DNA from: an uncultured archaeon
Lineage (GTDB): Archaea > Asgardarchaeota > Lokiarchaeia > Sigyniarchaeales > SOKP01
Direction: 5' to 3'
Assembly (NCBI GenBank): GCA_964632315.1
Contig: CAZWEM010000009.1
Span: 32,001 to 96,000, forward strand
Length of the DNA: 64,000 nucleotides
The translations under genes and the position numbers were made by a program. A model generated the notes under the pieces. The model was given only the letters and a program-made list of their open reading frames with translations. It did not search any database and was not told the origin of the DNA. Of the stretch, positions 2,487 to 56,348 are shown piece by piece (the first letter of the stretch is position 1; each line of letters begins with the position of its first letter).

Positions 2487-3525
2487 CTATAGTCTCTTAA
2501 TAATTAACTCAGCCATTCTATTTGAGAAGCCCCACTCGTTATCATAGTAGGAAAGTATAAATACTTCATCTTCAATGACTTTAGTCCACATAGAACTAAA
2601 TACAGAACTATGGGAGTTTCCAATAATATCATGACTCACAATAGGATCTTCCACGTAGTCTAATATTCCTTTTAAGGCACCCATGGATGCTTCTTTCATT
2701 TTAGCATTTACTTCTTCAGGAGTGGTTTTCTTTTCAACTATTGCTTTCAAGTCAACTACACTCCCATCTATGGTGGGAACTCTTATAGCAATACCGTCTA
2801 ATTTACCACTGAGTTCAGGAAATACTAAACCAATTGCCTTAGCAGCTCCAGTGGATGTAGGAATCATATTTTGAGCAGCAGCTCTGCCCCTAATCATCTT
2901 TTCAGGTGCACCTGCTCTAGCAATATCCGCTGTAGATTGATCGTTGGTGTATGAATGAATAGTTGTCATCAAACCATATTTGATGTTGAAATTTTCGTTC
3001 AGAACTTTTACAACAGGGGCTAAGCAGTTCGTCGTACATGAAGCATTTGAAATGATTTTATGCTCATCAGTTATTTTATCATCATTACATCCTAAAACAA
3101 CTGTAAAGTCGGGATTTGATGCTGGAGCGCTGATTAATACTCGTTTAGCTCCCGCAGTTAAGTGTTTAGATGCTCCATCTCTATCAGTAAATCTGCCAGT
3201 GGATTCCACTGCAACATCGATATTATTTTGACCATGTGGAAGATTTGCTGGATCTCTTTCTGCTGTTATTGGGATCTCCTTACCATCGATAACTAAAGAG
3301 TGTTCTTTAGCCTCAACTTTTCCTTTAAATTTCCCAAATACGGTATCATACTTTAATGCATAAGCTAGATATTTTGGATCGAAAAGATCATTAATCGATA
3401 CAATATCTATGTCATTCCAGTAGTTAGCGTATACTGCGCGAAAGAAGAGTCTTCCGATTCTGCCGAAGCCATGATTACTCCGTTAGCGAAGAGCTTAACG
3501 GATTTATACTGACTCGTTTCGCCAT
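2487..3525 (-). CDS. gap: Class I (bacterial/eukaryotic-type) glyceraldehyde-3-phosphate dehydrogenase, 335 aa after removing a 31-nt intron; exons 3525-3504 and 3472-2487
   Basis: Spliced N-terminus MAKRVSINGFGRIGRLFFR; YALKYDTVFGKF; catalytic SNASCTTNCLAP; YDNEWGFSNR. Exon 2 is open and in frame with the track ORF 2487..3209. Confidence 0.95.
3473..3503 (-). other. Putative bulge-helix-bulge intron in gap mRNA (31 nt)
   Basis: 5'-GUCA GUAU AA|A UCCGUUAAGC UCUUC GCUAACGGA GUAA UC|A UGGC-3'. Exon helix GUCA/UGGC, central helix GUAU/GUAA (one G.A mismatch), 3-nt bulges AAA and UCA, intron stem UCCGUUA/UAACGGA. Canonical cuts give AUA AAU GGC (I-N-G). Confidence 0.8.
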
Positions 3526-3814
3526 TTTATTTTTTCACCTTTTAAATTATTTAATGTTATTTTTTGTTTTTATGAATTTTCAATTTAAAATTGCATGCTA
3601 GTATGTTTTCGATAGTTTTTTAATTTTCTAGTTATAAATTTTATATTTGATCTCTTCTACCTATACACTTTACTGTTAAAAGTATTGTATTTGGTGTTTT
3701 GATCCATCAAAATTTATCTCTTAATTTAAGAAAATTAGACGCAAGTTTTAATTACTTTTAATTTCAGTTTAAATTCAATTTTTAAATTAAAATTACATTA
3801 AAAAAGAAAAAATT

Positions 3815-5236
3815 ATGACTCAAGAAGATAAAAAAGAAGTAGAAGTTAAAATCCCCGGTAGACGTGGGACTCAGGCAACGATAAACTTAGCAAATATTAT
3901 CGATAACTCCGATCAACAATTATTTTCTTCAGTATTTCCTCAAGTTCAAAGTTCGCTTGGTATTAGTATAGAGCAGGGAGGCTTTTTAACGGGTGTAAGG
4001 ACCATTCTTCAAGCGGTTTCAAGCCCAATTTGGGGATGGTGGAGCGATAGACATTCTAGAAGGCTAACTCTCGCAATAGGTTGCTTCCTTTGGGCATTAT
4101 TTACCATTTTAATTGCGTTTACATTTAGTTATATCGATATTTTAATTTATAGAGCCCTAACGGGGATTGGTCTTGCAGTAATTGTTCCAACAGCACAATC
4201 ACTTATCGCAGATTACTTTCCTCCGAAAACCAGAGGTAGAGCCTTCGGATGGTTAGGTCTGACAGGAGTTTTAGGTGCAGTGATTGGAGCTTTATTTGCT
4301 ACAGCCGTAGTTTCATATACATTGGTCTTTGGGATCGAAGCATGGAGATTTGTATTTATTGTTTGGGGTATTGTCAGTATCATTATTGGATTTTTAGTAC
4401 TACTTTTCTTAAAAGATCCTATTAGAGGTGAAATGGAACCTGAATTAAGAGAAGTAATTACTGCTAGAAAGGCACAAAGGTATAAAATACAACTGTCTGA
4501 TTATAAAAAAATATTCAAGAATAGAACGTTTGTTTTGATATTTCTTCAAGGAACAGCGGGTTCTATCCCATGGAGTGGACTAACAGCTTTCATGATAACT
4601 TGGTTTGAGTACATAGGATTTCCCACTTTTATCGCAGGAATAATGTTTGTCATTATAGGAGTAGGAGCAGCCTTAGGTAACCTTTTTGGAGGATGGATTG
4701 GAGATAAAGCGGCGAAATGGAATCCAAAACATGGACGACTGATTATTGCTCAGATTTCAGTATTTATTGGTATTCCCATGACTGCTGTGATATTTCTTTT
4801 AGTTCCCATGAGTATGGATTCTTTATTATTGTATCTCATACTAGGCGGATTAACAGGATTTGGCATCTCTTGGACCGCAGGAGGTTGTAATAATCCGATA
4901 TTTAGCGAGATATTTCCCCCTGAAATGAGGAGCTCTGCTTTTGCGGTAGATAGGGTTTTTGAAGGATCGTTTGGGGCATTAGGATCCATTTTTGTAGGTT
5001 TTGCCGCCGCGAGTTTCGGGTTCTTAACACCTTCTACGGAACTACAAAATATTCCCCTCAATGATCCATTGAGGATAGCTAACATGCAAGCACTCGCTTT
5101 AGGGATTTTCTTAGTTGCACTAATCCCATGGATAATTTGCTTGATAATCTATTCTTTTGTCTATCTTACTTATCCAAAAGACTATGAAAAGATGCGAGTT
5201 TTGTTGGAAACAAGAGCTCAAAAGTTGGAGGAATAA
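3815..5236 (+). CDS. MFS transporter (spinster-like)
   Basis: About 12 TMs; motif A 'WGWWSDRHSRR'; 'IADYFPPKTRGRAFG'. Confidence 0.9.
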   Translation: MTQEDKKEVEVKIPGRRGTQATINLANIIDNSDQQLFSSVFPQVQSSLGISIEQGGFLTGVRTILQAVSSPIWGWWSDRHSRRLTLAIGCFLWALFTILIAFTFSYIDILIYRALTGIGLAVIVPTAQSLIADYFPPKTRGRAFGWLGLTGVLGAVIGALFATAVVSYTLVFGIEAWRFVFIVWGIVSIIIGFLVLLFLKDPIRGEMEPELREVITARKAQRYKIQLSDYKKIFKNRTFVLIFLQGTAGSIPWSGLTAFMITWFEYIGFPTFIAGIMFVIIGVGAALGNLFGGWIGDKAAKWNPKHGRLIIAQISVFIGIPMTAVIFLLVPMSMDSLLLYLILGGLTGFGISWTAGGCNNPIFSEIFPPEMRSSAFAVDRVFEGSFGALGSIFVGFAAASFGFLTPSTELQNIPLNDPLRIANMQALALGIFLVALIPWIICLIIYSFVYLTYPKDYEKMRVLLETRAQKLEE

Positions 5237-5402
5237 ATCAGTATCAACTTTTTTTTAATTCTATTTCATCCATTCTAATTTTTAAAATTTTAATCACTTA
5301 AAAATCTAAACTTTACCTAACAAATTTCATTTAATTCTAGATATTTTTATTAATGTTACTACCACTTTATAAAGCATGTAGTTACCATTTTAGGAGATTA
5401 TA

Positions 5403-6623
5403 ATGAACGAGTTAGATGAGAAAATTTTACAGAAAATCGATGAAATGAAAGATGATATCATTCAATTTCACCAAAAGATGATAAGGATTCCTTCTGAAAA
5501 TCCTCCCTCTAAATATAAGGAAATCGCGAAATTTGTAGAAAAAAAAATGGATGAGATCGGGTTAAAAACTTCGATTAAGAGAAATAATGTCATTGGAGAA
5601 TATGATAATGGAGATTCCAAAACATTAATTTTTAATGGGCATTTTGATACGGTTGAGGCATTTAAAGGTTGGACTAAAGATCCATTTGAAGCTGAAATTG
5701 AGGGAGACAAAATTTATGGACGAGGGGCATCTGATGATAAATCCTCAGTAACCGCAGAACTTTTTGCGACTCAAGCATTAATCGAAGCTGGTATAGATTT
5801 AAAGGGAAAATTAATAGTTACTGCAGTTGGTGATGAAGAAACTGGCGGATTGAGAGGAGCAGATTATATAATAAGCAGTGGATTAGTGTCAGGAGATGCT
5901 TGTTTATTAGGAGATGCCGCAAATGGATATCCCTTTGGTTATTGCGGTGGAACAATGTATATCACGATTAATATTAAAGGAAAGACAGCCCATGGGTTGG
6001 CATTTCCCGACCTTCCCCCACCATATCGAAATGAGAATTCTGGGATAAATACCATTGAGCGGATGGTGAAGGTGATGAACTTTTTATTAAAATTAAAAGA
6101 AGAACTGCTACAAACAACAACTAAGTATCCTACTTCAGATGGTTGGGGATCTAATGTGAGTAGCATTAACCTCGCAGAAATCCACGGAGGTACGAAAATT
6201 ACTACCGTACCTGATCGTTGTTATCTTCATCTTAGCGTAAACACCATTCCTGAACAAGATGTCACAAGTATAAAGAAAAGATTACTAGATTTTGTCGAAG
6301 GTATGAAAGAGAAAGACCCTGATTTGAATATAACCGTTCAAATACCCGTTGCCATGGAACCGCAAGTGATCGAAGAATCGTCTCATTTCGCAAAAATTGT
6401 TTTAGATGCAGCAGAAACGATACACGGTGAAAAAAGGGAATTTAAAACCCTAATGCCTTCAACCGATGCTCATTGGTTTCAAGAGAGGGGGATTCCTACA
6501 ATTTTAGTAGGAGCTTCTGCTAAAGACAATAATATTCACGCTGAAGATGAATTCGTATATATTAAGGATCTGATCGATTTAGTTAAGATGTTTGCTTTAA
6601 CCGCTTTAAATTACTTAAAATGA
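5403..6623 (+). CDS. M20 family metallopeptidase/deacylase (ArgE/DapE-like)
   Basis: NGHFDTV, YGRGASDDK, GDEETGG, NIHAEDE metal-binding motifs. Confidence 0.92.
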   Translation: MNELDEKILQKIDEMKDDIIQFHQKMIRIPSENPPSKYKEIAKFVEKKMDEIGLKTSIKRNNVIGEYDNGDSKTLIFNGHFDTVEAFKGWTKDPFEAEIEGDKIYGRGASDDKSSVTAELFATQALIEAGIDLKGKLIVTAVGDEETGGLRGADYIISSGLVSGDACLLGDAANGYPFGYCGGTMYITINIKGKTAHGLAFPDLPPPYRNENSGINTIERMVKVMNFLLKLKEELLQTTTKYPTSDGWGSNVSSINLAEIHGGTKITTVPDRCYLHLSVNTIPEQDVTSIKKRLLDFVEGMKEKDPDLNITVQIPVAMEPQVIEESSHFAKIVLDAAETIHGEKREFKTLMPSTDAHWFQERGIPTILVGASAKDNNIHAEDEFVYIKDLIDLVKMFALTALNYLK

Positions 6624-6636
6624 AGGACTGGTGAAG

Positions 6637-7863
6637 ATGGCACCAACTGAAAAAAAAATTTTACAGAAAATTGATGATATGAAAGAAGAAATAATCAAAT
6701 TTCACCAACAGATCATAAGAATTCCTTCAGAAAACCCTCCTGGAAAATACAAGGCTATATCTGAATTTGTCAAGACAAAGTTTGAGGAATTGGGTCTCGA
6801 GACATTCTCCAAAAGATATAATGTAATAGGAAAAACTAAAGGCCCAGATCACCCAAAACTAATCGTTTATGCACACATGGATACTGTCCCCTCTTATGAT
6901 GGATGGAATGAAGCCAAACCATTTAGTGCCGAAATAGTTGATGATAAGATTTATGGTCGTGGTGCGTGTGATGATAAAGCTTGTGTTACTGCTGAAATCT
7001 TTGCTCTCAAGGCTTTAAAAGAATTGAATCTTGATCTTTCGGGGAAACTCACGCTACTCGCAACAATTGATGAAGAAACTGGAGGTTATAATGGTGCTAA
7101 ATACGTCCTTGATAAAAATCTTGTTTCGGGTGAAGCGTGTCTATTAGGTGATGGACGTGGACATTACCCCGTCGCATATTGTGGAGGATTTCTTCTCGTG
7201 AACTTCTTAATAAAGGGTAAGAAAGCCCATGCTTTAAGTTTTCCAGACATCCCTATTTATAGAAATGAATATTCAGGAATCAATGCAATAGAAAAGATGA
7301 AAAATATAATGAATTTTTTAACCCAACTCCAAGCAGAATTTCTCAATGTGGAAACAATGTATCCAAATTTTCCGGGTCATCCTTCCAAAGTGAATACTGT
7401 AAACATCGCAAAGATAGAAGGTGGTGAAAAACTATCTGTTGTGCCAGACAAAAGTTTAATGTATTGTCTAATAAACACGATTCCTGAACAAGATGTTGAG
7501 AGCATAAAAAAGAGAATCTTAAAGTTCATTGAACAAGCTAAAATAGAGGATCCCAATTTAGATGTAAATGTTCAATTCACGATGTCATTTGAACCTTTTA
7601 CAACGGATACCAATTCTAAAATCGCTAAGTCTGTTCAAATAGCAATAGAAACTGTCTATGGTGAAAAAAGGGAATTTAAATTATTTCAATCTGCAAATGA
7701 TGGTCACTTTTTCCATGAAAAAGGTATTGACACCATTTTAATGGGTACAGGCTCGCATGAATGCAGAGTGCACGAACCTGATGAGTTTGTTTATATCAAA
7801 GATTTGTTGGATACGACAAAAATTTTCGCACTAACAATAAAAAATTATTTAATAAACGATTAA
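6637..7863 (+). CDS. M20 family metallopeptidase/deacylase, tandem paralog
   Basis: AHMDTV, YGRGACDDK, DEETGG, VHEPDE; collinear with the upstream paralog. ATG at 6637 (track uses GTG 6631). Confidence 0.92.
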   Translation: MAPTEKKILQKIDDMKEEIIKFHQQIIRIPSENPPGKYKAISEFVKTKFEELGLETFSKRYNVIGKTKGPDHPKLIVYAHMDTVPSYDGWNEAKPFSAEIVDDKIYGRGACDDKACVTAEIFALKALKELNLDLSGKLTLLATIDEETGGYNGAKYVLDKNLVSGEACLLGDGRGHYPVAYCGGFLLVNFLIKGKKAHALSFPDIPIYRNEYSGINAIEKMKNIMNFLTQLQAEFLNVETMYPNFPGHPSKVNTVNIAKIEGGEKLSVVPDKSLMYCLINTIPEQDVESIKKRILKFIEQAKIEDPNLDVNVQFTMSFEPFTTDTNSKIAKSVQIAIETVYGEKREFKLFQSANDGHFFHEKGIDTILMGTGSHECRVHEPDEFVYIKDLLDTTKIFALTIKNYLIND

Positions 7864-7960
7864 AGCATATTTTCTTTCCTTTTTTTAAAATTAACTCTAT
7901 TCTTATTTAATGCTAAAAATCTGATAAATTATTAAAATATGAAACAAAAAGAAAAAGTTG

Positions 7961-8725
7961 TTAATCTTCTAAACTTTCCTTCCCCATTAAGCGCATGACG
8001 GAGTCTGCCAACTTATTTTGGGAACGACTTAAGATTCCTTTGATTTTTCCCTCTTTACCCAAAACTCTAAGCATGATTCCATTCCACACTGAAGAGGGAT
8101 CTCCTTTAACTTGTTTGAATCGATCGCGGAAAACTTTCACGGAGATGTTATCATAGTTTTTCGATGCGTCCGTGCATTTAAAGCACAAAATGCATTTATT
8201 CGTATCAACCTTTATTTCCTTTCCTTCTCTTGAAAGCGCTCCAACCGAACATTCATCTGCAAATGCTTCAAGAACCTTATTATCTTTCTCAGTTGACGTG
8301 ATTGTAATTGAACCGTCCACAACTTTTCGTACTTTGTTACCATTGTCTAAAGTACGCACTTCTTCTTCGAATTCAGGAAGGGAACCATTTTCTACTAACA
8401 GTACTTTATTTTCCCCATTTATTAGTAACTCAAGAGTATAACCTGGACAAATCCAAGTACAACTGCCACACCAAATGCATTTATCCGTATCTACGACGAT
8501 TTTCTTATCTGATTCAATTCTCATTTCTTCGGGGGTTCCAATAGCTGTTTTCTTGAGGGGTTCATCATAAATTGATACTGTTACTGGACATACACGATGG
8601 CAGAATCCACATTGGATGCATTTACTTTCATCGTATTGCAAAATCATCTCGTGATTAAGCATTTTATATACATAATGGGTAATATTTTCATCAATTTCGA
8701 TAGTCTTTTTAGCTGGTAATGACAT
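7961..8725 (-). CDS. 4Fe-4S polyferredoxin-like protein (FwdF-like)
   Basis: CIQCGFCHRVCP, CIWCGSCTWICP, partial CILCFKC. Confidence 0.8.
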   Translation of the reverse strand: MSLPAKKTIEIDENITHYVYKMLNHEMILQYDESKCIQCGFCHRVCPVTVSIYDEPLKKTAIGTPEEMRIESDKKIVVDTDKCIWCGSCTWICPGYTLELLINGENKVLLVENGSLPEFEEEVRTLDNGNKVRKVVDGSITITSTEKDNKVLEAFADECSVGALSREGKEIKVDTNKCILCFKCTDASKNYDNISVKVFRDRFKQVKGDPSSVWNGIMLRVLGKEGKIKGILSRSQNKLADSVMRLMGKESLED

Positions 8726-8880
8726 GAGTCTTCCTTTTTAAAATGCTATTATAATATTATGTATTAATTTCTAAAAAATAAAAATCCTTTTAGTAATTTC
8801 CAAGATAGTAATTACTGGAATGGCTTTAAACTTGGGGGATTAAGGAAAATTCTCTTTAAAAATAAAAATTGGAAAAAAGA

Positions 8881-9753
8881 TTAGATCGATGATTTGGAAT
8901 CGATTTGATACATGATTTTATCATTCAACTTTAACTTTAATAATAATTTTTCTGCTCGTTTTCTATTATACGACCTAAGAGATTCAAGAATAATAATCCC
9001 AGGAAAAACAGAACCTGCTGCTATTAATGGACTTATCATTTCAATTATTATTGTCAAATCAAATCCGCTTCTTTCAACTGATGAGGAAACCCATGATATA
9101 ATCATCACGGCTAAGTTATACATAAATCCTACTCCTGCGAATCCTTTAATCACCTTATATAACGGTCTACTTGCTAAATCTGCGCTCATGAATTGAAAAC
9201 CATTGATTTTTTTTGCTTTAATTATTCCCACATCATTCATTACATATATAGGAATCACAATTAAAACAGATGGGATGGTTATTATCCATGCGATTTGCCA
9301 CAATGTTTCAATATCTGGAATATAATACGTTTCTGAAGGACTCACGCTTCTCATGAATTCAATAATAGATTTTTGACCTGCTAAGGTAAAGCACACATTT
9401 CCGACAAAGAAACCTAAAATTATAGATCTCGCCCAAATCTTGCGAAATAAGCTTGATTTACTTAATGGTTTAATTTCTACTAGTCCAATCTTGCTTTTCT
9501 TAGAGAGAAATTTTGTATATATTCTCATGAAAATTGGAGAGATGAAATATATTGCTATAATACCGAATATCGTTCCTGTTATTCCAGGCATTACGACAGC
9601 AAATATCCATTCCACTTGTACATTTCCAGGAGTAATGAAAAAACCTTCTGGGTATGTTATGGGATACGGCATTAAGGAAAACGCGATGATTGAGAGTGTT
9701 ATCAAAAAGATATATAAAATTATAAAAAATAAATAGGTCTTGTTTAGTTTCAT
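8881..9753 (-). CDS. Hypothetical multi-pass membrane protein
   Basis: 290-aa ORF with about 6 hydrophobic segments. Confidence 0.7.
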   Translation of the reverse strand: MKLNKTYLFFIILYIFLITLSIIAFSLMPYPITYPEGFFITPGNVQVEWIFAVVMPGITGTIFGIIAIYFISPIFMRIYTKFLSKKSKIGLVEIKPLSKSSLFRKIWARSIILGFFVGNVCFTLAGQKSIIEFMRSVSPSETYYIPDIETLWQIAWIITIPSVLIVIPIYVMNDVGIIKAKKINGFQFMSADLASRPLYKVIKGFAGVGFMYNLAVMIISWVSSSVERSGFDLTIIIEMISPLIAAGSVFPGIIILESLRSYNRKRAEKLLLKLKLNDKIMYQIDSKSSI

Positions 9754-9877
9754 ACATCATTGATATATTAAATTTATTTAAATTATGCCACTTAGATAAG
9801 AGATAAAGTAAATTCTTCCCTTTCCAACTTATTAAGGCAAATAAAATGAGATGATAAAAAATAGATTGGATAAAAAA

Positions 9878-11017
9878 TTAGGTCTTTTCTAATTCCATTT
9901 CCCTAATAGCTTTCCCCGATCTGAATGGGATATCTTCAACGCTTTCTCCGGCACGATACTTGAATTTCTCCTTAAAGGCATCGTTAAGCGACTGGAAGTA
10001 TAGAGATAACGGAAGGTTCATGGGGCAGTTATTATCACAATTTCCGCATTCGACACATCGATCAGCCACATGAGCGATACGTGTTAATTGATAGGTCTCT
10101 TTGTTAATCGTTTTCTCCTTTCGCTTCTTTTGTAAGATACAATCAACGCAATAGCATACAGGACAGCCTCGAATACACATTCCACACATCGTACATTTCT
10201 GTAATCGCTCAATTTTTTCTGTTTGTGAAAGTTTGTCCCATTCCTCTAAATCTTTTGCCCTCTTTGCAAGAGCTGCATCTTTAATTTCTTTGATTTTATC
10301 CACTAAATTTTGTTTAATATCGTTTGGTAAAGGTTTAGTCTTTATCTTCGATTTTTCGACTAAATCACTTCCTTTTTCAGTATAAACTTTTAAAATGATT
10401 TCATCAGAATCTATAGGCATCACTAAATCAGTGATTCCTAAATCAGCGACGACAGGAACTTTTCGGTTACATCGAGAACAATTTTCAGCTACGTTAATGG
10501 GGACTTCCTTGACCTTACCATCATCTAATTTCAGAATAAGTCCATTATCCCCAACTTTTTCTTTTACGACTTTAGCTGGATCGATATCCTTTACTTTCTT
10601 GATGTCCTTCGATGCACTTGGAATCATACCGCGATCTTCAAATGCAATGATAAAAAGATTCTCTAAATTCACCTGCCTAATTTTTGCTAATTCGATTAAA
10701 GCTCTTGTATCACATGGTCGAGCAATTACGGCAACTTTTTCATTTAAAGCTCCTTTTAAAGTTTTATGCAGATACTTCGCAGCTGAATCTGTTCTGGCAT
10801 AACCATAAGCTATCAAATTTGTTAAAGGGAATGTTTTAATGTCTTCTTCTTTTTCATAAACAGCTGGTATGACCGTAAATCGATCTTCTTCATTGGTTTT
10901 TTTATTAATTTTTGTTTCTGCACCTAATACTTTATCGACGTAGTTCTCTTTAAGAAGAGATCTTAATAAGATTGGAAAATCATCAATCTTTATGAGATAT
11001 TCTGCTAATGAATCCAT
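9878..11017 (-). CDS. FdhB/FrhB-family (F420-interacting beta subunit-like) Fe-S protein
   Basis: 'KVAVIARPCDTRALIELAKIRQVNLENL', CSRC, ADLG, C-terminal CTMCGMCIRGCPVCYC and CVECGNCDNNCP; lies downstream of hdrA-mvhD. Confidence 0.85.
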   Translation of the reverse strand: MDSLAEYLIKIDDFPILLRSLLKENYVDKVLGAETKINKKTNEEDRFTVIPAVYEKEEDIKTFPLTNLIAYGYARTDSAAKYLHKTLKGALNEKVAVIARPCDTRALIELAKIRQVNLENLFIIAFEDRGMIPSASKDIKKVKDIDPAKVVKEKVGDNGLILKLDDGKVKEVPINVAENCSRCNRKVPVVADLGITDLVMPIDSDEIILKVYTEKGSDLVEKSKIKTKPLPNDIKQNLVDKIKEIKDAALAKRAKDLEEWDKLSQTEKIERLQKCTMCGMCIRGCPVCYCVDCILQKKRKEKTINKETYQLTRIAHVADRCVECGNCDNNCPMNLPLSLYFQSLNDAFKEKFKYRAGESVEDIPFRSGKAIREMELEKT

Positions 11018-11142
11018 GTTGTTCCAACTGGGTTTATTTAATTTTAAACTTAACTTATATTTTCTAATACTTACTATATTTTATTCTATTCTTTCTTGTA
11101 AAAAGAATTATAAATTTATGTGTTGCATGGAGCTACCATTTC

Positions 11143-11179
11143 TTCGGTTGAGTTCTCATTTTTTTTAACTCAACTTCAT
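11143..11179 (-). promoter_or_regulatory. Eukaryote-like SECIS element 3' of mvhD
   Basis: AUGA-A-GUUGAGUU-[AAAAAAAUGAG]-AACUCAAC-C-GA: AUGA/GA quartet, 8-bp stem, A-rich 11-nt loop. Outer pairing AUGUGUU/AACACAU at about 11118-11191. Confidence 0.88.
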
Positions 11180-11197
11180 CAGGAACACATTAATTAT

Positions 11198-11665
11198 TCA
11201 TGTCTTGGCTTTTTTCGCTGCCGTATCAGGTCGTAAGGGACTGGGACCTAATTCACGTATGGTTTTATCAAATGCAGTCGCTTCTTGTTGAAATTTTTGG
11301 CCTTCTGCTGCGGTACAATATCCCAAGTGGATTCTATTTTCACTAAGTCCCATTGATTTGAGTACTTCCTTGGTATATTCGACTTCTCGATACGCAAAAT
11401 AATTTCCAGTCTCATAATCGCATTCTTTAGGGTATCAACCAACAACCATTACTCCATCCGCCCCTCGTCCAAAGGATCTCATTATTAAATCAGAATCGAC
11501 CCTTCCCGTACAAGGCACTAATATCACGCGAATTGAGGTTGGATATTGAGCTCTAATTGTGCCTGCCATATCTGCACTGCCATATCCTCATTTTTAGAAG
11601 ACTTTCGAGATGAAAGTCTCATTCCAACACAGGAAGGCAATGATCTTTATATCTTCTTCTGCCAT
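11198..11665 (-). CDS. mvhD: Hydrogenase iron-sulfur subunit D (MvhD/VhuD/FlpD) selenoprotein, 145 aa; Sec16 (UGA 11590-11588), Sec67 (UGA 11437-11435); 30-nt intron 11621-11592
   Basis: Spliced: [47 protein letters not shown]...GADGVMVVGUYPKECDYETGN...CTAAEGQKF...ELGPSPLRP. Absent from the ORF track. Confidence 0.93.
11592..11621 (-). other. Putative bulge-helix-bulge intron in mvhD mRNA (30 nt)
   Basis: 5'-UCCUGUG UUGG AA|U GAGACUUUC AUCUC GAAAGUCUU CUAA AA|A UGAGGA-3'. Central helix UUGG/CUAA, bulges AAU and AAA, 9-bp intron stem, in-frame UAA. Canonical cuts give UGU UGG AAA UGA (C-W-K-U). Confidence 0.82.
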
Positions 11666-11679
11666 GATTATTTACCTCT

Positions 11680-13647
11680 TTACTCCTCTATGGGTAATAA
11701 TTCATCGATTAAAGCATTATATTGTACATCCCTAAAGTAGGTCAATTCAATTGCCTTTGAGGGACAAATTGCAGCACATGTTCCACAGCCCCTGCATCTA
11801 ATTAAATCAACTACAATGTTTCCCTTTTCATTAATTGAAATTGCGGTATAGGGACAAGCTTCTATGCATTTATAACATTTAGCACACCGCTCATCCGAAG
11901 GACTAGCTCTTATTAATTCCATCATGTATTCACCTTTTCCCATTGGAATTGCTGCTGTGGATGCTGCTCCCTTAGCTTGACTAACCGCTTTATCAATTTC
12001 TTTTTGGCCTTGTGCAGAACCACAGATATAAATTCCAGGAACTTTCGTGCTAATTGGATCCAAGCGAGCATGAAATTCTTTTAAGAATCCATCTGGACTT
12101 TTTTCCATGTTTAGTACTTTAGCGATTTGATTTGTTCCCTCAGATGGTAAAGACGCTGAAGAGAGAACGACCATGTCAAATTCTTGGGTCACAATTGTAT
12201 CAGTCCCTACTGGTTCAAATTGAACGATTAAATTCTTTGTATCTGGATCTTCTTCAATTTTTCCGACAAGACCTTTAACAAAGACAACTCCAGCATCTCG
12301 AGACCGTCGATAGTATTCTTCATAATCTTTTCCTGCACATCGCATGTCGATATAAACGCATAGTATTTGCGAATCAGGATGTTCAGATTTAATTAATTTC
12401 GAATTCTTTAGTGACAGGTTACAGCAAATTACTGAACACCACGCATTTTTTGTAACATCTCTACTTCCAACACAATTTATGAATAAGATCCTTTTTGGTC
12501 TCGTAGAGTCGGAAGGACGTTTGAGGTGTCCAAACGTAGGACCATTTGGTGCTATAATTCGTTCTAATTGGATTTGTGTTATTACATTATCATAAGTTCC
12601 GTATCCATAATCAGGACCTTCGTAGAGGTCCCAACCCGTAGCGACTATAATGGTACCAACCTTTAATTCGACAACTTCATCTTGTAAGCTAAAATCAACC
12701 GCATCTTCTTCACAAGCATCAACGCATCCAAAACATTCGACGCAATATTCTCTCGCAATATCATAAACAGCGGGAACGGCTTGAGCAAAAGCGATGTCAA
12801 TACACTTTCTAGCAGAAAGACCTTCATCAAAATAATTGGATACATAAATTGGGCAAGCGTCAGTGCAAGCACTACATCCAGTACACTTATCTTCAATGAC
12901 AAAGCGAGAATGTCTTTTTACTTTCACTTCAAAATTCCCAATGTACCCATCTACTTGTTCTACTTCACTGAATGTTAAAATCTCTATATTTTCATGACGA
13001 TTAGCTTCAAGCATTTTAGGCCCGAGTATTCATATTGAACAATCATCAGTTGGAAAAGTTCTATCAAGTTGCGACATCCTCCCTCCAATGGTCGTATTCT
13101 TTTCCACCAAGTAAACTTTAAATCCTGAATCTGCTAAATCCACTGCTGCTGATAATCCAGAAATGCCCCCTCCAACCACTAATGCAGCTGGTTCTACAGG
13201 AACAGTCATGGTAGGTACGTCTTCTAATAATCTTGCTCTTGAAATTCCCGCTTTAATTAACTCTATTGCTTTTTGGAGGGCTTTCTCGCGTTCTTGTTGA
13301 TGAACAAATGAGCAATGTTCCCTAATATTTACAAACTCCAGATAGCGTGGTGGTAAACCTGCTTCTTTCAAAATTGCATGAAATACTGGTTGATGAGTTT
13401 TTGGTGTACAAGCAGCCACGACAATTCTTTCTAATTTGGCTTCTTCAATTTCTTCTTTAATGTACGCGGATCCTCCTTCTGTACACATAGAAAGATAATC
13501 AAAAGCTTTTACTCCAGGAAGTTTATTTAACTCTTCCACGATGGATGGAATGTCTAAAATTCCCGCAATATTGATACCTCAGCGACAGACGAAAACGCCA
13601 ACGACAGATAATCTGTTTTCATCATCCTTGGTCTGATTTTCAGACAA
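11680..13647 (-). CDS. hdrA: Heterodisulfide reductase subunit A selenoprotein, 655 aa; Sec23 (UGA 13581-13579), Sec206 (UGA 13032-13030)
   Basis: TTG start after GGGTG. GVFVCRUGINIAG and RTFPTDDCSIUILGPKM place UGA at conserved Cys positions. All segments are in one frame, joining the track ORFs 13030..13539 and 11680..13014. GGGISG FAD motif and ferredoxin motifs present. Confidence 0.95.
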
Positions 13648-16380: not shown

Positions 16381-16503
16381 AGATTGAAATCTTTTGTTTC
16401 AAAATTGTAGCTTCTACACTAGCTAAAATAAAAAAAGTATGCCTCTATTATACTGTTATTACTAATTCCATAAAAAAAGTAAATAAAAGAATAAAATATT
16501 TTG

Positions 16504-55379: not shown

Positions 55380-56348
55380 ATGACTATTCAATGGGGTAAA
55401 ATGATCTTGCACGGTTTACTTAATGCCGTGTTTTATATTGGCATCCCTTACGGTATGATTTACTTACTGGAATATCTTAATATCGTATCCTTTACAGAAG
55501 TATTTAAAATTTCAATAATTATTTTCGGAGTTATCGGTACCATTATATCCATGATTAAACATGCTTATCCAAAGGATACTTCTGCTAACCGCTTAATTTC
55601 GTTCTTTATTAGTATCTACTCGGGAATTTATTTGTTCTATATTTTTGGAGGTTTTACACCCGGCGTAGAATTAGGAACATATTCAATTAAGACTGATTTA
55701 CTTCAAGTTAACTTAGGACTGAAGGTAATTGCGTGGTTATTGTTAGCCTCAACAGCGATAAGAGGATTGCAATATTTAGTTGAGGCAATAGAATTACGCA
55801 AAAATAAACAATACAATGTAAAAGTGAAAAGACAATTTAGATTAAGTAAGGTGTTCAAAGCCTTTGGATTTTTAATGAGTTTAGTAACTATAGGCTATTT
55901 TGCCAGTGTAATATTTAGTGGCATGAATCTTAGACCAAATATTGACCCAAACTTCGCTTTAGGATGGAATGATGGAGGAACACCACTAAATCCTGCTGAT
56001 GACACAATCAATATTACAGTTACATTTGACATCATAAATGGTGGTATTTATGCGGTATATGACGTAAATCTATCAATGGATGTCTTTACGGAAACTACAA
56101 GTAACCCAATTGCTTTACCAGAATATACAAAAATAGGAGAATCACCCAATCATTATTATCCTGCTTTTCATTCATTCACTTCGACTTTAGGTGAAACTAT
56201 AACTATAGATATTAACCCGCTCTATGCTCCTGGATTAGCTACAACTGATGCAACCCTACGATTGCAAATTTCCTTTGAAACTTTATATGCCTTAATCTAT
56301 ATTGATCTTAATATTTCAGTTACTACACCTTGGAATTCCCTAATATAA
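55380..56348 (+). CDS. Hypothetical membrane protein with C-terminal extracellular beta domain
   Basis: About 5 TMs then a Thr/Asn-rich domain; ATG 55380. Confidence 0.7.
   Translation: MTIQWGKMILHGLLNAVFYIGIPYGMIYLLEYLNIVSFTEVFKISIIIFGVIGTIISMIKHAYPKDTSANRLISFFISIYSGIYLFYIFGGFTPGVELGTYSIKTDLLQVNLGLKVIAWLLLASTAIRGLQYLVEAIELRKNKQYNVKVKRQFRLSKVFKAFGFLMSLVTIGYFASVIFSGMNLRPNIDPNFALGWNDGGTPLNPADDTINITVTFDIINGGIYAVYDVNLSMDVFTETTSNPIALPEYTKIGESPNHYYPAFHSFTSTLGETITIDINPLYAPGLATTDATLRLQISFETLYALIYIDLNISVTTPWNSLI

What the first reader, a model, noticed from the sequence alone, without database searches (positions are those of the whole stretch)
3473..11621. Candidate system: tRNA-type (bulge-helix-bulge) micro-introns in protein-coding mRNAs of an Asgard-like archaeon
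Seen in sequence: two unrelated genes 8 kb apart (gap, mvhD) each carry a 30-31 nt insert within the first 45 coding nt. Each insert lies inside the most conserved N-terminal motif, contains an in-frame UAA, and forms a stem with a 5-nt pyrimidine-rich loop (UCUUC / AUCUC). Each is flanked by a 4-nt helix and two 3-nt bulges on opposite strands. Established knowledge: the archaeal splicing endonuclease EndA cuts BHB motifs after the 2nd nt of each bulge and RtcB ligates. The mRNA intron of this type that I know is crenarchaeal cbf5. Applying the cleavage rule restores both proteins exactly, although the inserts share no stem sequence. Inference: this lineage splices metabolic mRNAs with the tRNA-splicing machinery, possibly genome-wide and possibly as a regulatory switch. 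That parallels the non-spliceosomal 26-nt XBP1 intron ligated by RtcB in eukaryotes. Annotation pipelines would call such genes truncated or pseudogenes.
Basis: partly seen in the sequence, partly recalled or inferred. Interest (0 to 1): 0.97.

Follow-up and report, generated by a model that had tools for sequence, protein, structure and literature searches.

The report
tRNA-type mini-introns in Asgard mRNAs
Two metabolic genes of an Asgard (Loki-type) archaeon are each broken near their start by a 30-31-base hairpin insert shaped like the site cut by the tRNA-splicing enzyme; comparison with relatives shows the inserts must be cut out of the mRNA, which papers document for only one archaeal protein gene (cbf5).

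Summary
The second gene is the selenoprotein vhuD, not plain mvhD, and carries a 30-nt insert (11592-11621). Both inserts fold as helix / 4-bp helix / 3-nt bulge motifs. Cutting after nt 2 of each bulge gives MAKRVSIN|GFGRIGR and FLCWK|U(Sec)GYG, the junctions of intron-less homologues.

All 27 complete relatives' gap genes lack the insert. G000's gap shows no relaxed selection (omega about 0.03; 2 non-synonymous against 28 synonymous own changes).

The vhuD insert sits at the same site in 6 of 161 genomes of the class. These fall in three clades with unrelated hairpin sequences and lengths of 30 or 31 nt. Omega among bearers is 0.07-0.10.

Two EndA-family genes and RtcB are present. The gap insert stands in contigs of four independent metagenome runs.

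No RNA data exist for these loci, so splicing is inferred, not shown. There is no evidence for a regulatory role.

This scan found the same mini-introns earlier on other pieces of this genome. I re-verified TBP and leuS, and my own scan added a GH38 gene. No paper in the library reports BHB introns in Asgard protein-coding genes. Verdict: a real and important new variant of a known kind.

The parts
3504..3525 (-). gap exon 1: ATG at 3525-3523, then MAKRVSI and the first base of the Asn codon
   Evidence: The closest homologues begin MAKRVAIN/MAKNVSIN followed by GFGRIGR. An SD-like GGTGA lies upstream.
3473..3503 (-). gap BHB mini-intron, 31 nt: 1 nt, then a 24-nt hairpin (3479-3502; 9 bp with one bulged A; loop UCUUC), then 4 nt of H(3') (3475-3478), then 2 nt. 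It holds an in-frame UAA.
   Evidence: Absent from all 27 complete relatives' genes and from the syntenic DNA of G016, G153, G010 and G012. Present without gaps in contigs of four runs from four studies. Unique in the genome.
3467..3514 (-). Whole gap BHB motif: h 3510-3514 with 3467-3471; H 3506-3509 with 3475-3478; bulges 3503-3505 and 3472-3474
   Evidence: Read by hand. The MFE fold keeps h and h' and leaves a symmetric 7x7 internal loop, which is H plus a bulge on each strand. The scanner scored it H3 h6 h'7.
2487..3472 (-). gap exon 2: GFGRIGR... to the stop; 327 aa, class I GAPDH
   Evidence: Omega is about 0.03 against relatives. G000-specific changes are 2 non-synonymous and 28 synonymous. 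Two population SNPs are synonymous.
11622..11665 (-). vhuD exon 1: [14 protein letters not shown] plus two bases of the Lys codon
   Evidence: Orthologues read ...FLCWK-U-GYG without interruption.
11592..11621 (-). vhuD BHB mini-intron, 30 nt: 1 nt, then a 23-nt hairpin (11598-11620; 9 bp; loop AUCUC), then H(3') CUAA (11594-11597), then 2 nt. It holds an in-frame UAA and ends 1 nt before the Sec UGA.
   Evidence: Absent from G010 and G012. Homologous variants occur in G016, G153 and JGI contigs. Unrelated introns occupy the same site in G112, G135, G029 and L118.
11585..11634 (-). Whole vhuD BHB motif: h 11628-11634 with 11585-11590; H 11624-11627 with 11594-11597; bulges 11621-11623 (AAU) and 11591-11593 (AAA)
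   Evidence: H4 h2 h'9. On 8 variants, 83.5% of cells pair in register against 37-49% when the partners are slid.
11198..11591 (-). vhuD exon 2: Sec codons at 11588-11590 and 11435-11437; TGA stop at 11198-11200
   Evidence: One TGA is kept at the internal Sec position inside the match in most of the roughly 50 best relatives' matches. VhuD with two Sec positions, downstream of hdrA, is described for Lokiarchaeota in PMC4989117.
11680..13539 (-). hdrA directly upstream of vhuD in the same operon. It has one in-frame TGA (Sec) at 13030-13032. This is context and not an intron.
   Evidence...DDCSI-U-ILGPKM.

Best explanation
Both inserts are bulge-helix-bulge (BHB) mini-introns of the tRNA type.

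Proposed mechanism:
1. The genes are transcribed with the insert.
2. In the pre-mRNA, the end of exon 1 pairs with the 3' part of the intron to form the 4-bp helix H, and with the start of exon 2 to form the outer helix h. The intron's own 9-bp hairpin forms helix h'.
3. The archaeal splicing endonuclease cuts after the second nucleotide of each 3-nt bulge. In Asgard archaea this enzyme is an (alpha-beta)2 EndA with the L1 loop, which tolerates relaxed motifs.
4. RtcB joins the exons and probably circularises the 30-31-nt intron.
5. Only the spliced mRNA encodes full-length GAPDH (MAKRVSIN-GFGRIGR...) and VhuD (...FLCWK-Sec-GYG...). Unspliced mRNA gives peptides of 16 and 23 residues.

Shown here: the anatomy; exact restoration of both junctions; absence or patchy presence in relatives; purifying selection on the spliced frames; presence of the enzymes.

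Inferred: the cutting and joining themselves, and which enzymes do them.

The gap intron is a recent gain or is private to this species. The vhuD site has been occupied in three clades, either by repeated gain or by an old intron that was often lost. This may be because the exon sequence there (CCUUCCUC ... GAGGA) supplies a ready outer helix.
For: 1. Geometry. Both inserts have the order h / H(4) / bulge(3) / h' ... h' / H(4) / bulge(3) / h, which is the order known from pre-tRNA.

2. Exact junctions.
- All 27 complete relatives' gap genes read ...ATHAAY|GGNTTYGG at the predicted joint.
- The closest database proteins (95-91% identical, 334-335 aa) begin MAKRVAIN/MAKNVSIN followed by GFGRIGR.
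- About 27 vhuD orthologues and paralogues read TGY TGG AAR TGA GGN.

3. The inserts cannot simply be translated.
- Both hold an in-frame UAA.
- The vhuD-site inserts are 30 nt in G000, G016 and G153 but 31 nt in G112, G135 and G029. Only precise removal keeps the frame in all of them.

4. The genes are not pseudogenes.
- The spliced vhuD CDS is intact, with both Sec codons, in all six bearers.
- Omega is 0.07 (G000-G016), 0.07 (G000-G153), 0.10 (G016-G153) and 0.10 (G112-G135). This divergence arose with the intron in place.
- gap omega is about 0.03. G000-specific changes are 2 non-synonymous against 28 synonymous, no worse than intron-less G010 (4:20) and G016 (4:29). Two population SNPs are synonymous.

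5. Structure is kept across variants.
- 83.5% of cells pair in register against 37-49% when partners are slid. No shuffle of 500 reached the paired fraction, and 9 of 500 reached the covariation score.
- One clean compensatory change is U-A to C-G at stem position 7 in G153 and L128.
- The three clades have unrelated hairpin sequences but the same layout.

6. Machinery. There are two loci with the tRNA_int_endo domain, consistent with alpha and beta subunits, and one intact RtcB. Asgard EndA is reported as (alpha-beta)2 with the L1 loop that gives broad specificity (PMC5829648).

7. The inserts are real DNA. The gap insert stands without gaps in contigs of four runs from four studies. vhuD intron variants stand in three GTDB genomes of the genus and in four JGI contigs.

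8. Same-architecture 30-nt inserts restore conserved motifs in other genes of this genome:
- TBP: IQNI|VASGDL
- leuS: YPMGYD|SFGLPAEN
- a GH38 mannosidase: HWDRE|WYLPF

9. Asgard tRNA genes are heavily and repeatedly invaded by BHB introns (bioRxiv 10.64898/2026.10.13.758758). Aragorn finds introns in 19 of only 30 recognisable tRNA genes here.
Against: - No RNA evidence. No RNA run holds the locus, and the spliced gap junction was not found in JGI contigs.
- The gap central helix has only 3 pairs (one G.U) plus a G.A mismatch. Five of the eight vhuD variants also have a G.A in H. These are relaxed motifs, not canonical ones.
- The outer helix of the G000 vhuD motif starts with two G.U pairs and a bulged G.
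- Covariation is modest. Only 4 pairs change on both sides, and 195 of 500 shuffles do as well on that measure.
- A genome-wide BHB descriptor scan showed no excess over a mirror-geometry decoy. The class is therefore too small for that test to detect, or too varied for a fixed descriptor.
- The age of the gap insertion is unknown. A very recent inactivation would leave no trace in dN/dS.
Confidence: 0.8

Rival explanations
1. The inserts are removed from the RNA, but not by EndA and RtcB. Some other nuclease and ligase, or a so far unknown system that recognises hairpins, does it, and the BHB likeness is only partial.
For: The motifs are relaxed: G.A mismatches in H and a weak outer helix in vhuD. 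All verified examples share a strikingly uniform layout of 1 nt, a 9-bp hairpin with a 5-nt loop, 4 nt and 2 nt. This is narrower than EndA would require.
Against: The predicted EndA cut positions give the correct junction in every case examined. This includes introns of 30 and 31 nt and hairpins of unrelated sequence. EndA-family genes and RtcB are present. No other archaeal system that removes 30-nt inserts is known.
Confidence: 0.08
2. The inserts are disabling insertions. gap and this vhuD copy are young pseudogenes, or genes rescued by internal starts.
For: Each insert carries an in-frame stop. Annotators call a 240-aa truncated GAPDH. vhuD has about a dozen paralogues in the genome. The gap insert is private to this species.
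Against: The spliced frames are under strong purifying selection, including on branches that post-date the vhuD insertion, and G000's gap lineage shows no relaxation. Both Sec codons, the start codons and the SD sites are kept. Only one class I gap match exists in G000. A GAPDH lacking the GFGRIGR NAD-binding loop would be inactive. The same kind of insert sits in the TBP gene, at the only locus with both TBP repeats, and in leuS.
Confidence: 0.05
3. Ribosomes skip the insert during translation by programmed bypassing, as in phage T4 gene 60, so no RNA processing is needed.
For: There is a stop codon inside a hairpin shortly after the break point, as in gene 60.
Against: There are no matching take-off and landing codons. 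In gap the AAU before the insert has no AAU/AAC directly before GGC (the codon there is CAU). In vhuD the only downstream AAU lands out of frame (read). The gaps of 30-31 nt begin and end inside codons (phase 1 and phase 2). The two-strand BHB symmetry that involves exon 2 has no role in bypassing.
Confidence: 0.03
4. The inserts are assembly or sequencing artefacts, or the vhuD hairpin is a Sec-insertion (SECIS-like) signal rather than an intron.
For: The genome is a MAG with 8.6% estimated contamination. The vhuD hairpin lies next to a UGA.
Against: The gap insert is found in four independent assemblies. vhuD variants are found in several genomes and JGI contigs. The Loki SECIS lies downstream of vhuD, not upstream of the UGA (PMC4989117). 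The insert holds an in-frame UAA. gap has the same kind of insert and no Sec codon.
Confidence: 0.01

Closest known systems
BHB intron in the cbf5 (pseudouridine synthase) pre-mRNA of Crenarchaeota (Desulfurococcales, Sulfolobales; Watanabe 2002; Yokobori 2009, PMC2738675)
   Same: Both are protein-coding genes interrupted by a short insert that folds with its exon borders into a BHB-like structure. In cbf5, cleavage depends on EndA. Both show patchy gain and loss among relatives.
   Different: cbf5 is one gene family in thermophilic Crenarchaeota. Here the hosts are metabolic genes (gap, and the selenoprotein vhuD) of an Asgard archaeon. The introns are uniform mini-introns of 30-31 nt, and several other genes of the same genome carry them. 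For cbf5 splicing was shown experimentally; here it is inferred.
[quoted passage not shown]
   Same: The motif, the predicted cut positions and the presumed enzymes ((alpha-beta)2 EndA with L1 loop, and RtcB) are the same. The evolutionary behaviour is also the same: repeated, lineage-specific gains at sites that can form the motif, with no repeated donor sequence.
   Different: The host is an mRNA, so the cut must keep a reading frame. Splicing also has to precede or compete with translation. That preprint does not treat protein-coding genes as intron hosts.
Unconventional cytoplasmic splicing of HAC1/XBP1 mRNA (Ire1 endonuclease; ligation by RtcB in animals)
   Same: A small non-spliceosomal intron is removed from an mRNA by a protein endonuclease that recognises RNA stem-loops. 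An RtcB-type ligase joins the exons (established knowledge).
   Different: The endonuclease (Ire1) and the motif (twin 7-nt loops) are different. HAC1/XBP1 splicing is a regulated stress switch that changes the C-terminus. There is no evidence here of regulation, and no membership is implied.
Programmed translational bypassing of phage T4 gene 60
   Same: A short untranslated gap with a stop codon in a hairpin lies inside a coding sequence.
   Different: Gene 60 needs matching take-off and landing codons and a nascent-peptide signal. Neither gene here has matching codons.

Membership tests
Archaeal BHB (EndA-type) intron | Two 3-nt bulges on opposite strands separated by a 4-bp helix, each strand reading helix - 4 nt - bulge in the 5' to 3' direction | tested here: met
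   vhuD has UUGG/CUAA (4 of 4 pairs) with bulges AAU and AAA. gap has GUAU/GUAA (3 pairs plus a G.A) with bulges AAA and UCA, which is a relaxed form.
Archaeal BHB (EndA-type) intron | Flanking helices h (exon-exon) and h' (within the intron) | tested here: met
   gap: h is 5 bp; h' is 6+3 bp. vhuD: h' is 9 bp; h is two G.U pairs, a bulged G and then 4 bp, with 7 further bp beyond. On 8 vhuD variants, 83.5% of cells pair in register against 37-49% when slid.
Archaeal BHB (EndA-type) intron | Cutting at the symmetric positions in the bulges yields the uninterrupted gene sequence | tested here: met
   The predicted joints 3504^3472 and 11622^11591 give ...ATA AAT GGC... and ...TGG AAA TGA GGA.... 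These are identical in form to all intron-less homologues.
Archaeal BHB (EndA-type) intron | The host encodes the splicing endonuclease and an RtcB-type ligase | tested here: met
   PF01974 matches at two loci (C28 and C8; open frames of 208 and 212 aa). PF01139 RtcB matches at C26 (492 aa).
Archaeal BHB (EndA-type) intron | The intron is actually excised and the exons ligated in RNA (spliced transcript, circular intron) | not testable with these tools
   No RNA run holds the stretch. The spliced gap junction is not in JGI contigs.
Pseudogene / disabling insertion | Relaxed selection and decay of the downstream frame | tested here: not met
   vhuD omega is 0.07-0.10 among intron bearers. gap omega is about 0.03, and G000-specific changes are 2 non-synonymous against 28 synonymous. 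No further stops or frameshifts were seen.
Programmed translational bypass (T4 gene 60 type) | Matching take-off and landing codons flanking the gap | tested here: not met
   No in-frame matching codon pair exists in either gene (read).
SECIS element | In Loki-type archaea, an RNA structure downstream of the coding sequence that is compatible with translation of the surrounding frame | tested here: not met
   The hairpin lies upstream of the UGA and holds an in-frame UAA. In three relatives it is 31 nt long and shifts the frame. The same kind of insert occurs in gap, which has no Sec. The position of the Loki SECIS is taken from PMC4989117.
Group I / group II self-splicing intron or other Rfam family | A ribozyme core of hundreds of nucleotides | tested here: not met
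   The inserts are 30-31 nt. There are no Rfam matches anywhere in the window.

The most novel reading that the evidence does not exclude
This Asgard lineage carries a whole class of about 30-nt BHB micro-introns, tens to hundreds per genome, in mRNAs. The hosts include core metabolic, selenoprotein and essential information-processing genes. The introns would be gained again and again wherever exon sequence can supply the outer helices. Endonuclease-and-ligase splicing of mRNA would then be an obligatory step of gene expression in close prokaryotic relatives of eukaryotes. That would require translation to wait for, or be shielded from, unspliced messages.
Probability: 0.55. Interest if true: 0.92.

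Novelty: new variant of a known kind. Interest (0 to 1): 0.86.

Why it matters
The textbook view is that archaeal protein genes are uninterrupted, and cbf5 is the single documented exception. If these mini-introns are spliced, several things follow.

- An Asgard archaeon routinely needs RNA splicing to make GAPDH, a hydrogenase/heterodisulfide-reductase-associated selenoprotein, TBP and LeuRS.
- That bears directly on how intron-bearing genes and the separation of transcription from translation could arise before the spliceosome.
- It gives a system in which intron gain can be dated between sister species.
- In practice, annotation pipelines already mis-call these genes as truncated. The databases hold a 240-aa GAPDH for this organism, so metabolic reconstructions of Asgard MAGs will under-count intact genes.

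Tried and rejected
1. RNA evidence. No RNA holder was listed for window 3000-12000. The exact spliced gap junction (29 nt) was not found in JGI metagenome contigs. No database protein of 335 aa is more than 95% identical to exon 2, so neither a spliced-RNA-derived nor an intron-less form of this species is on record.

2. Genome-wide census.
- I wrote a BHB descriptor scanner (H>=3 of 4, contiguous h' and h) and a mirror-geometry decoy. Filters used ORF restoration, start-less leaders, dicodon coding scores and alignment to in-genome paralogues.
- True and decoy counts were equal at every threshold. The noise comes from gene junctions and open non-coding frames.
- The scan does recover gap, vhuD, TBP, leuS and the GH38 gene. 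It cannot count the class, so I make no claim on the number.

3. The 33-nt BHB-like hit in gyrB at C6:101178-101210 is a false positive. It lies in continuous coding sequence.

4. The break in hdrA at 13030 is a Sec TGA, not an intron.

5. The loose ends at 11572 in runs X1 and X5 looked at first like an intron-less relative. They are G000's own intron-less vhuD paralogue on contig C2.

6. Other inserts seen in the DNA comparison are not introns:
- 7879-7908, 2403-2448 and 3546-3564, and the G016 insert after window 26047, are intergenic.
- 56090-56121 is an ordinary in-frame indel.

7. The introns are not copies of a repeat. Each matches only itself in the genome.

8. Printing the tRNA intron sequences from aragorn output failed on a format issue and I did not repeat it.

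Full report
**What is there**

On the minus strand the window holds a class I GAPDH gene. Its first eight codons (ATG at 3525; MAKRVSIN) are separated by 31 nt (3473-3503) from an intact 327-codon frame that begins GFGRIGR.

Eight kb away, directly downstream of hdrA, lies a gene of the FlpD/MvhD family. Its first 14 codons and two further bases ([14 protein letters not shown] plus AA) are separated by 30 nt (11592-11621) from the rest. This rest begins A-TGA-GGA-TAT-GGC and holds a second in-frame TGA at VVG-U-YPKECDY. The gene is therefore the selenoprotein VhuD, which has two Sec positions and sits behind a Sec-containing hdrA. Exactly this arrangement is described for Lokiarchaeota (PMC4989117). 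The in-frame TGA of hdrA at 13030 is also a Sec codon and not a break.

Homologue names in public databases place the organism in Promethearchaeota, that is Asgard. The MAG has 4.45 Mb and 33% G+C.

**The structure**

Each insert holds an in-frame UAA and a 9-bp hairpin with a 5-nt loop (UCUUC, AUCUC). Pre-tRNA gives the geometry: on each strand, read 5' to 3', come an outer helix, 4 nt of the central helix, a 3-nt bulge and the next helix. Both sites fit it.

- vhuD: the end of exon 1 (UUGG) pairs with CUAA just after the hairpin. The bulges are AAU and AAA. The outer helix uses UG..UCCU of exon 1 and AGGA..UG of exon 2.
- gap: GUAU pairs with GUAA (three pairs and a G.A). The bulges are AAA and UCA. 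The outer helix has 5 bp.
- The thermodynamic fold keeps h and h'. In gap it leaves exactly a 7x7 internal loop where H and the bulges lie.

Cutting after the second base of each bulge gives ...ATA AAT GGC TTC... and ...TGT TGG AAA TGA GGA....

A fixed site and length shows this much structure at about 2.8e-4 of positions in this genome. Two genes showing it in a frame-restoring register is not chance.

**Relatives**

- All 27 complete gap genes of related genomes (same genus and order) lack the insert and read ATHAAY|GGNTTYGG at the predicted joint.
- The closest database proteins (95-91% identical) begin MAKRVAIN/MAKNVSIN followed by GFGRIGR.
- For vhuD, some 27 orthologues and paralogues read C-W-K-U-G-Y-G without interruption.
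- A pattern search of 161 genomes of the class found an insert at exactly this site in six: G000, G016 and G153 (same genus, 30 nt, related sequences); G112 and G135 (another genus, 31 nt); and G029 (another family, 31 nt, GC-rich).
- JGI contigs add further variants: L118, L121, and copies of the G016 and G153 forms.
- The three groups share the layout and the cut sites but not the hairpin sequence. Because their lengths differ by one base, only precise removal keeps the frame in all of them.
- On the eight distinct variants, 83.5% of cells pair in the proposed register against 37-49% when the partners are slid. One clean compensatory change (U-A to C-G) and several G.U intermediates occur. 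Covariation is modest overall.
- All bearers use the GC-rich codons GCC TTC CTC/CTG in exon 1. These build the outer helix with GAGGA of exon 2. Most intron-less genes use AT-rich synonyms. This rests on three clades only, so it is a hint.

**Not pseudogenes, not artefacts**

- The spliced vhuD frames are intact in all six bearers, with both Sec codons. Omega is 0.07-0.10 in comparisons among bearers, so purifying selection acted with the intron in place.
- gap has omega of about 0.03. G000's own lineage shows 2 non-synonymous against 28 synonymous changes, no worse than intron-less relatives. Two population SNPs are synonymous.
- The gap insert stands without gaps in contigs of four runs from four studies of salt-marsh metagenomes.
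- NCBI and JGI both hold a 240-aa 'GAPDH' identical to the C-terminal part of exon 2.
- Each intron matches only itself in the genome, so they are not copies of a mobile repeat.
- Nothing in the window matches any Rfam family.

**Machinery and setting**

- The genome has two loci with the splicing-endonuclease catalytic domain and one intact RtcB.
- Asgard EndA is reported as (alpha-beta)2 with the L1 loop that allows relaxed motifs (PMC5829648).
- Asgard tRNA genes are reported to be heavily interrupted through many independent gains, at sites able to form BHB motifs and with no identified route of arrival (bioRxiv 10.64898/2026.10.13.758758).
- Aragorn recognises only 30 tRNA genes here, 19 of them with introns.

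**How widespread**

- DNA alignment of window 1-60000 with four species of the genus covered 42 kb. It found exactly two CDS-breaking inserts of 20-60 nt, the two of this finding. The window was chosen because of them, so this is not a density estimate.
- Earlier notes of this scan report the same kind of mini-intron on other pieces of this genome: TBP, leuS, gyrB, histone, acetyl-CoA synthetase, thiolase, chelatase and Top6B.
- I re-verified TBP (C18:19083-19112, IQNI|VASGDL) and leuS (C41:26254-26283, YPMGYD|SFGLPAEN), and found a GH38 gene (C4:136906-136935, HWDRE|WYLPF). All three are 30 nt with the same layout of 1 nt, hairpin, 4 nt and 2 nt.
- My descriptor scan against a mirror-geometry decoy could not count the class.

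**Rivals**

- Translational bypassing fails for lack of matching take-off and landing codons.
- A SECIS role fails on position, on the in-frame stop and on the 31-nt variants.
- Pseudogenisation fails on selection.
- An artefact fails on the independent assemblies.
- A different RNA-level removal system cannot be excluded without biochemistry.

**Literature**

Full-text searches found no report of BHB introns in Asgard protein-coding genes. The documented precedent is cbf5 of Crenarchaeota (PMC2738675).

**Verdict**

This is a real feature and very probably a pair of spliced BHB mini-introns. It is a new variant of a known kind and of high interest. RNA proof is still missing, and nothing supports a regulatory role.

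Noticed in passing
window 13030-13032 (-), within hdrA 11680-13539: hdrA has one in-frame TGA at ...DDCSI-U-ILGPKM, the canonical Sec position. ORF lists therefore split the gene into 169-aa and 444-aa pieces. hdrA and vhuD are in tandem with a very short spacer, as described for Lokiarchaeota.
   Followed up: partly
window 11017-11200: vhuD ends with a TGA stop. The shared Loki-type SECIS expected downstream of vhuD (PMC4989117) should lie in this spacer. I did not look for it.
   Followed up: no
window 2487-3209 (-); proteins P0143 (NCBI) and P0138 (JGI): Public annotation holds a 240-aa truncated GAPDH starting at an internal GTG. It is identical to the window. The intron therefore already causes mis-annotation in the databases.
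   Followed up: yes
window 11628-11640 (-) and loci L078-L082, L087, L118, L120-L122, L128: Every intron-bearing vhuD uses GCC TTC CTC (CTG in G000) before TGY TGG. This gives a CCUUCCUC strand that pairs with GAGGA of exon 2. Most intron-less relatives use AT-rich synonymous codons there. Exon codon choice may be tied to intron presence.
   Followed up: partly
G000 C18:19083-19112 (+), C41:26254-26283 (-), C4:136906-136935 (+): Three further 30-nt inserts with the same layout restore conserved motifs of TBP, LeuRS and a GH38 mannosidase.
   Followed up: partly
whole genome G000: Aragorn recognises only 30 tRNA genes. 19 of them have introns, and several of those have implausible introns of more than 1 kb. 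This points to many tRNA genes that are multiply or non-canonically interrupted.
   Followed up: no
literature, PMC4989117: That paper notes one Loki HdrA.3/VhuD.3 pair whose coding sequences 'overlap by 28 bp in different frames'. Given the intron found here near the start of vhuD, that odd overlap might hide an unrecognised mini-intron. This is pure conjecture.
   Followed up: no
window 16395-16418: A 24-nt palindromic insert (TGTAGAAGCTACA core) is present here relative to G012. Its context was not examined.
   Followed up: no
window 56090-56121 (+): A 27-nt in-frame indel relative to G016 lies inside a continuous ORF of about 320 codons. It is an ordinary length variant and not an intron.
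   Followed up: yes
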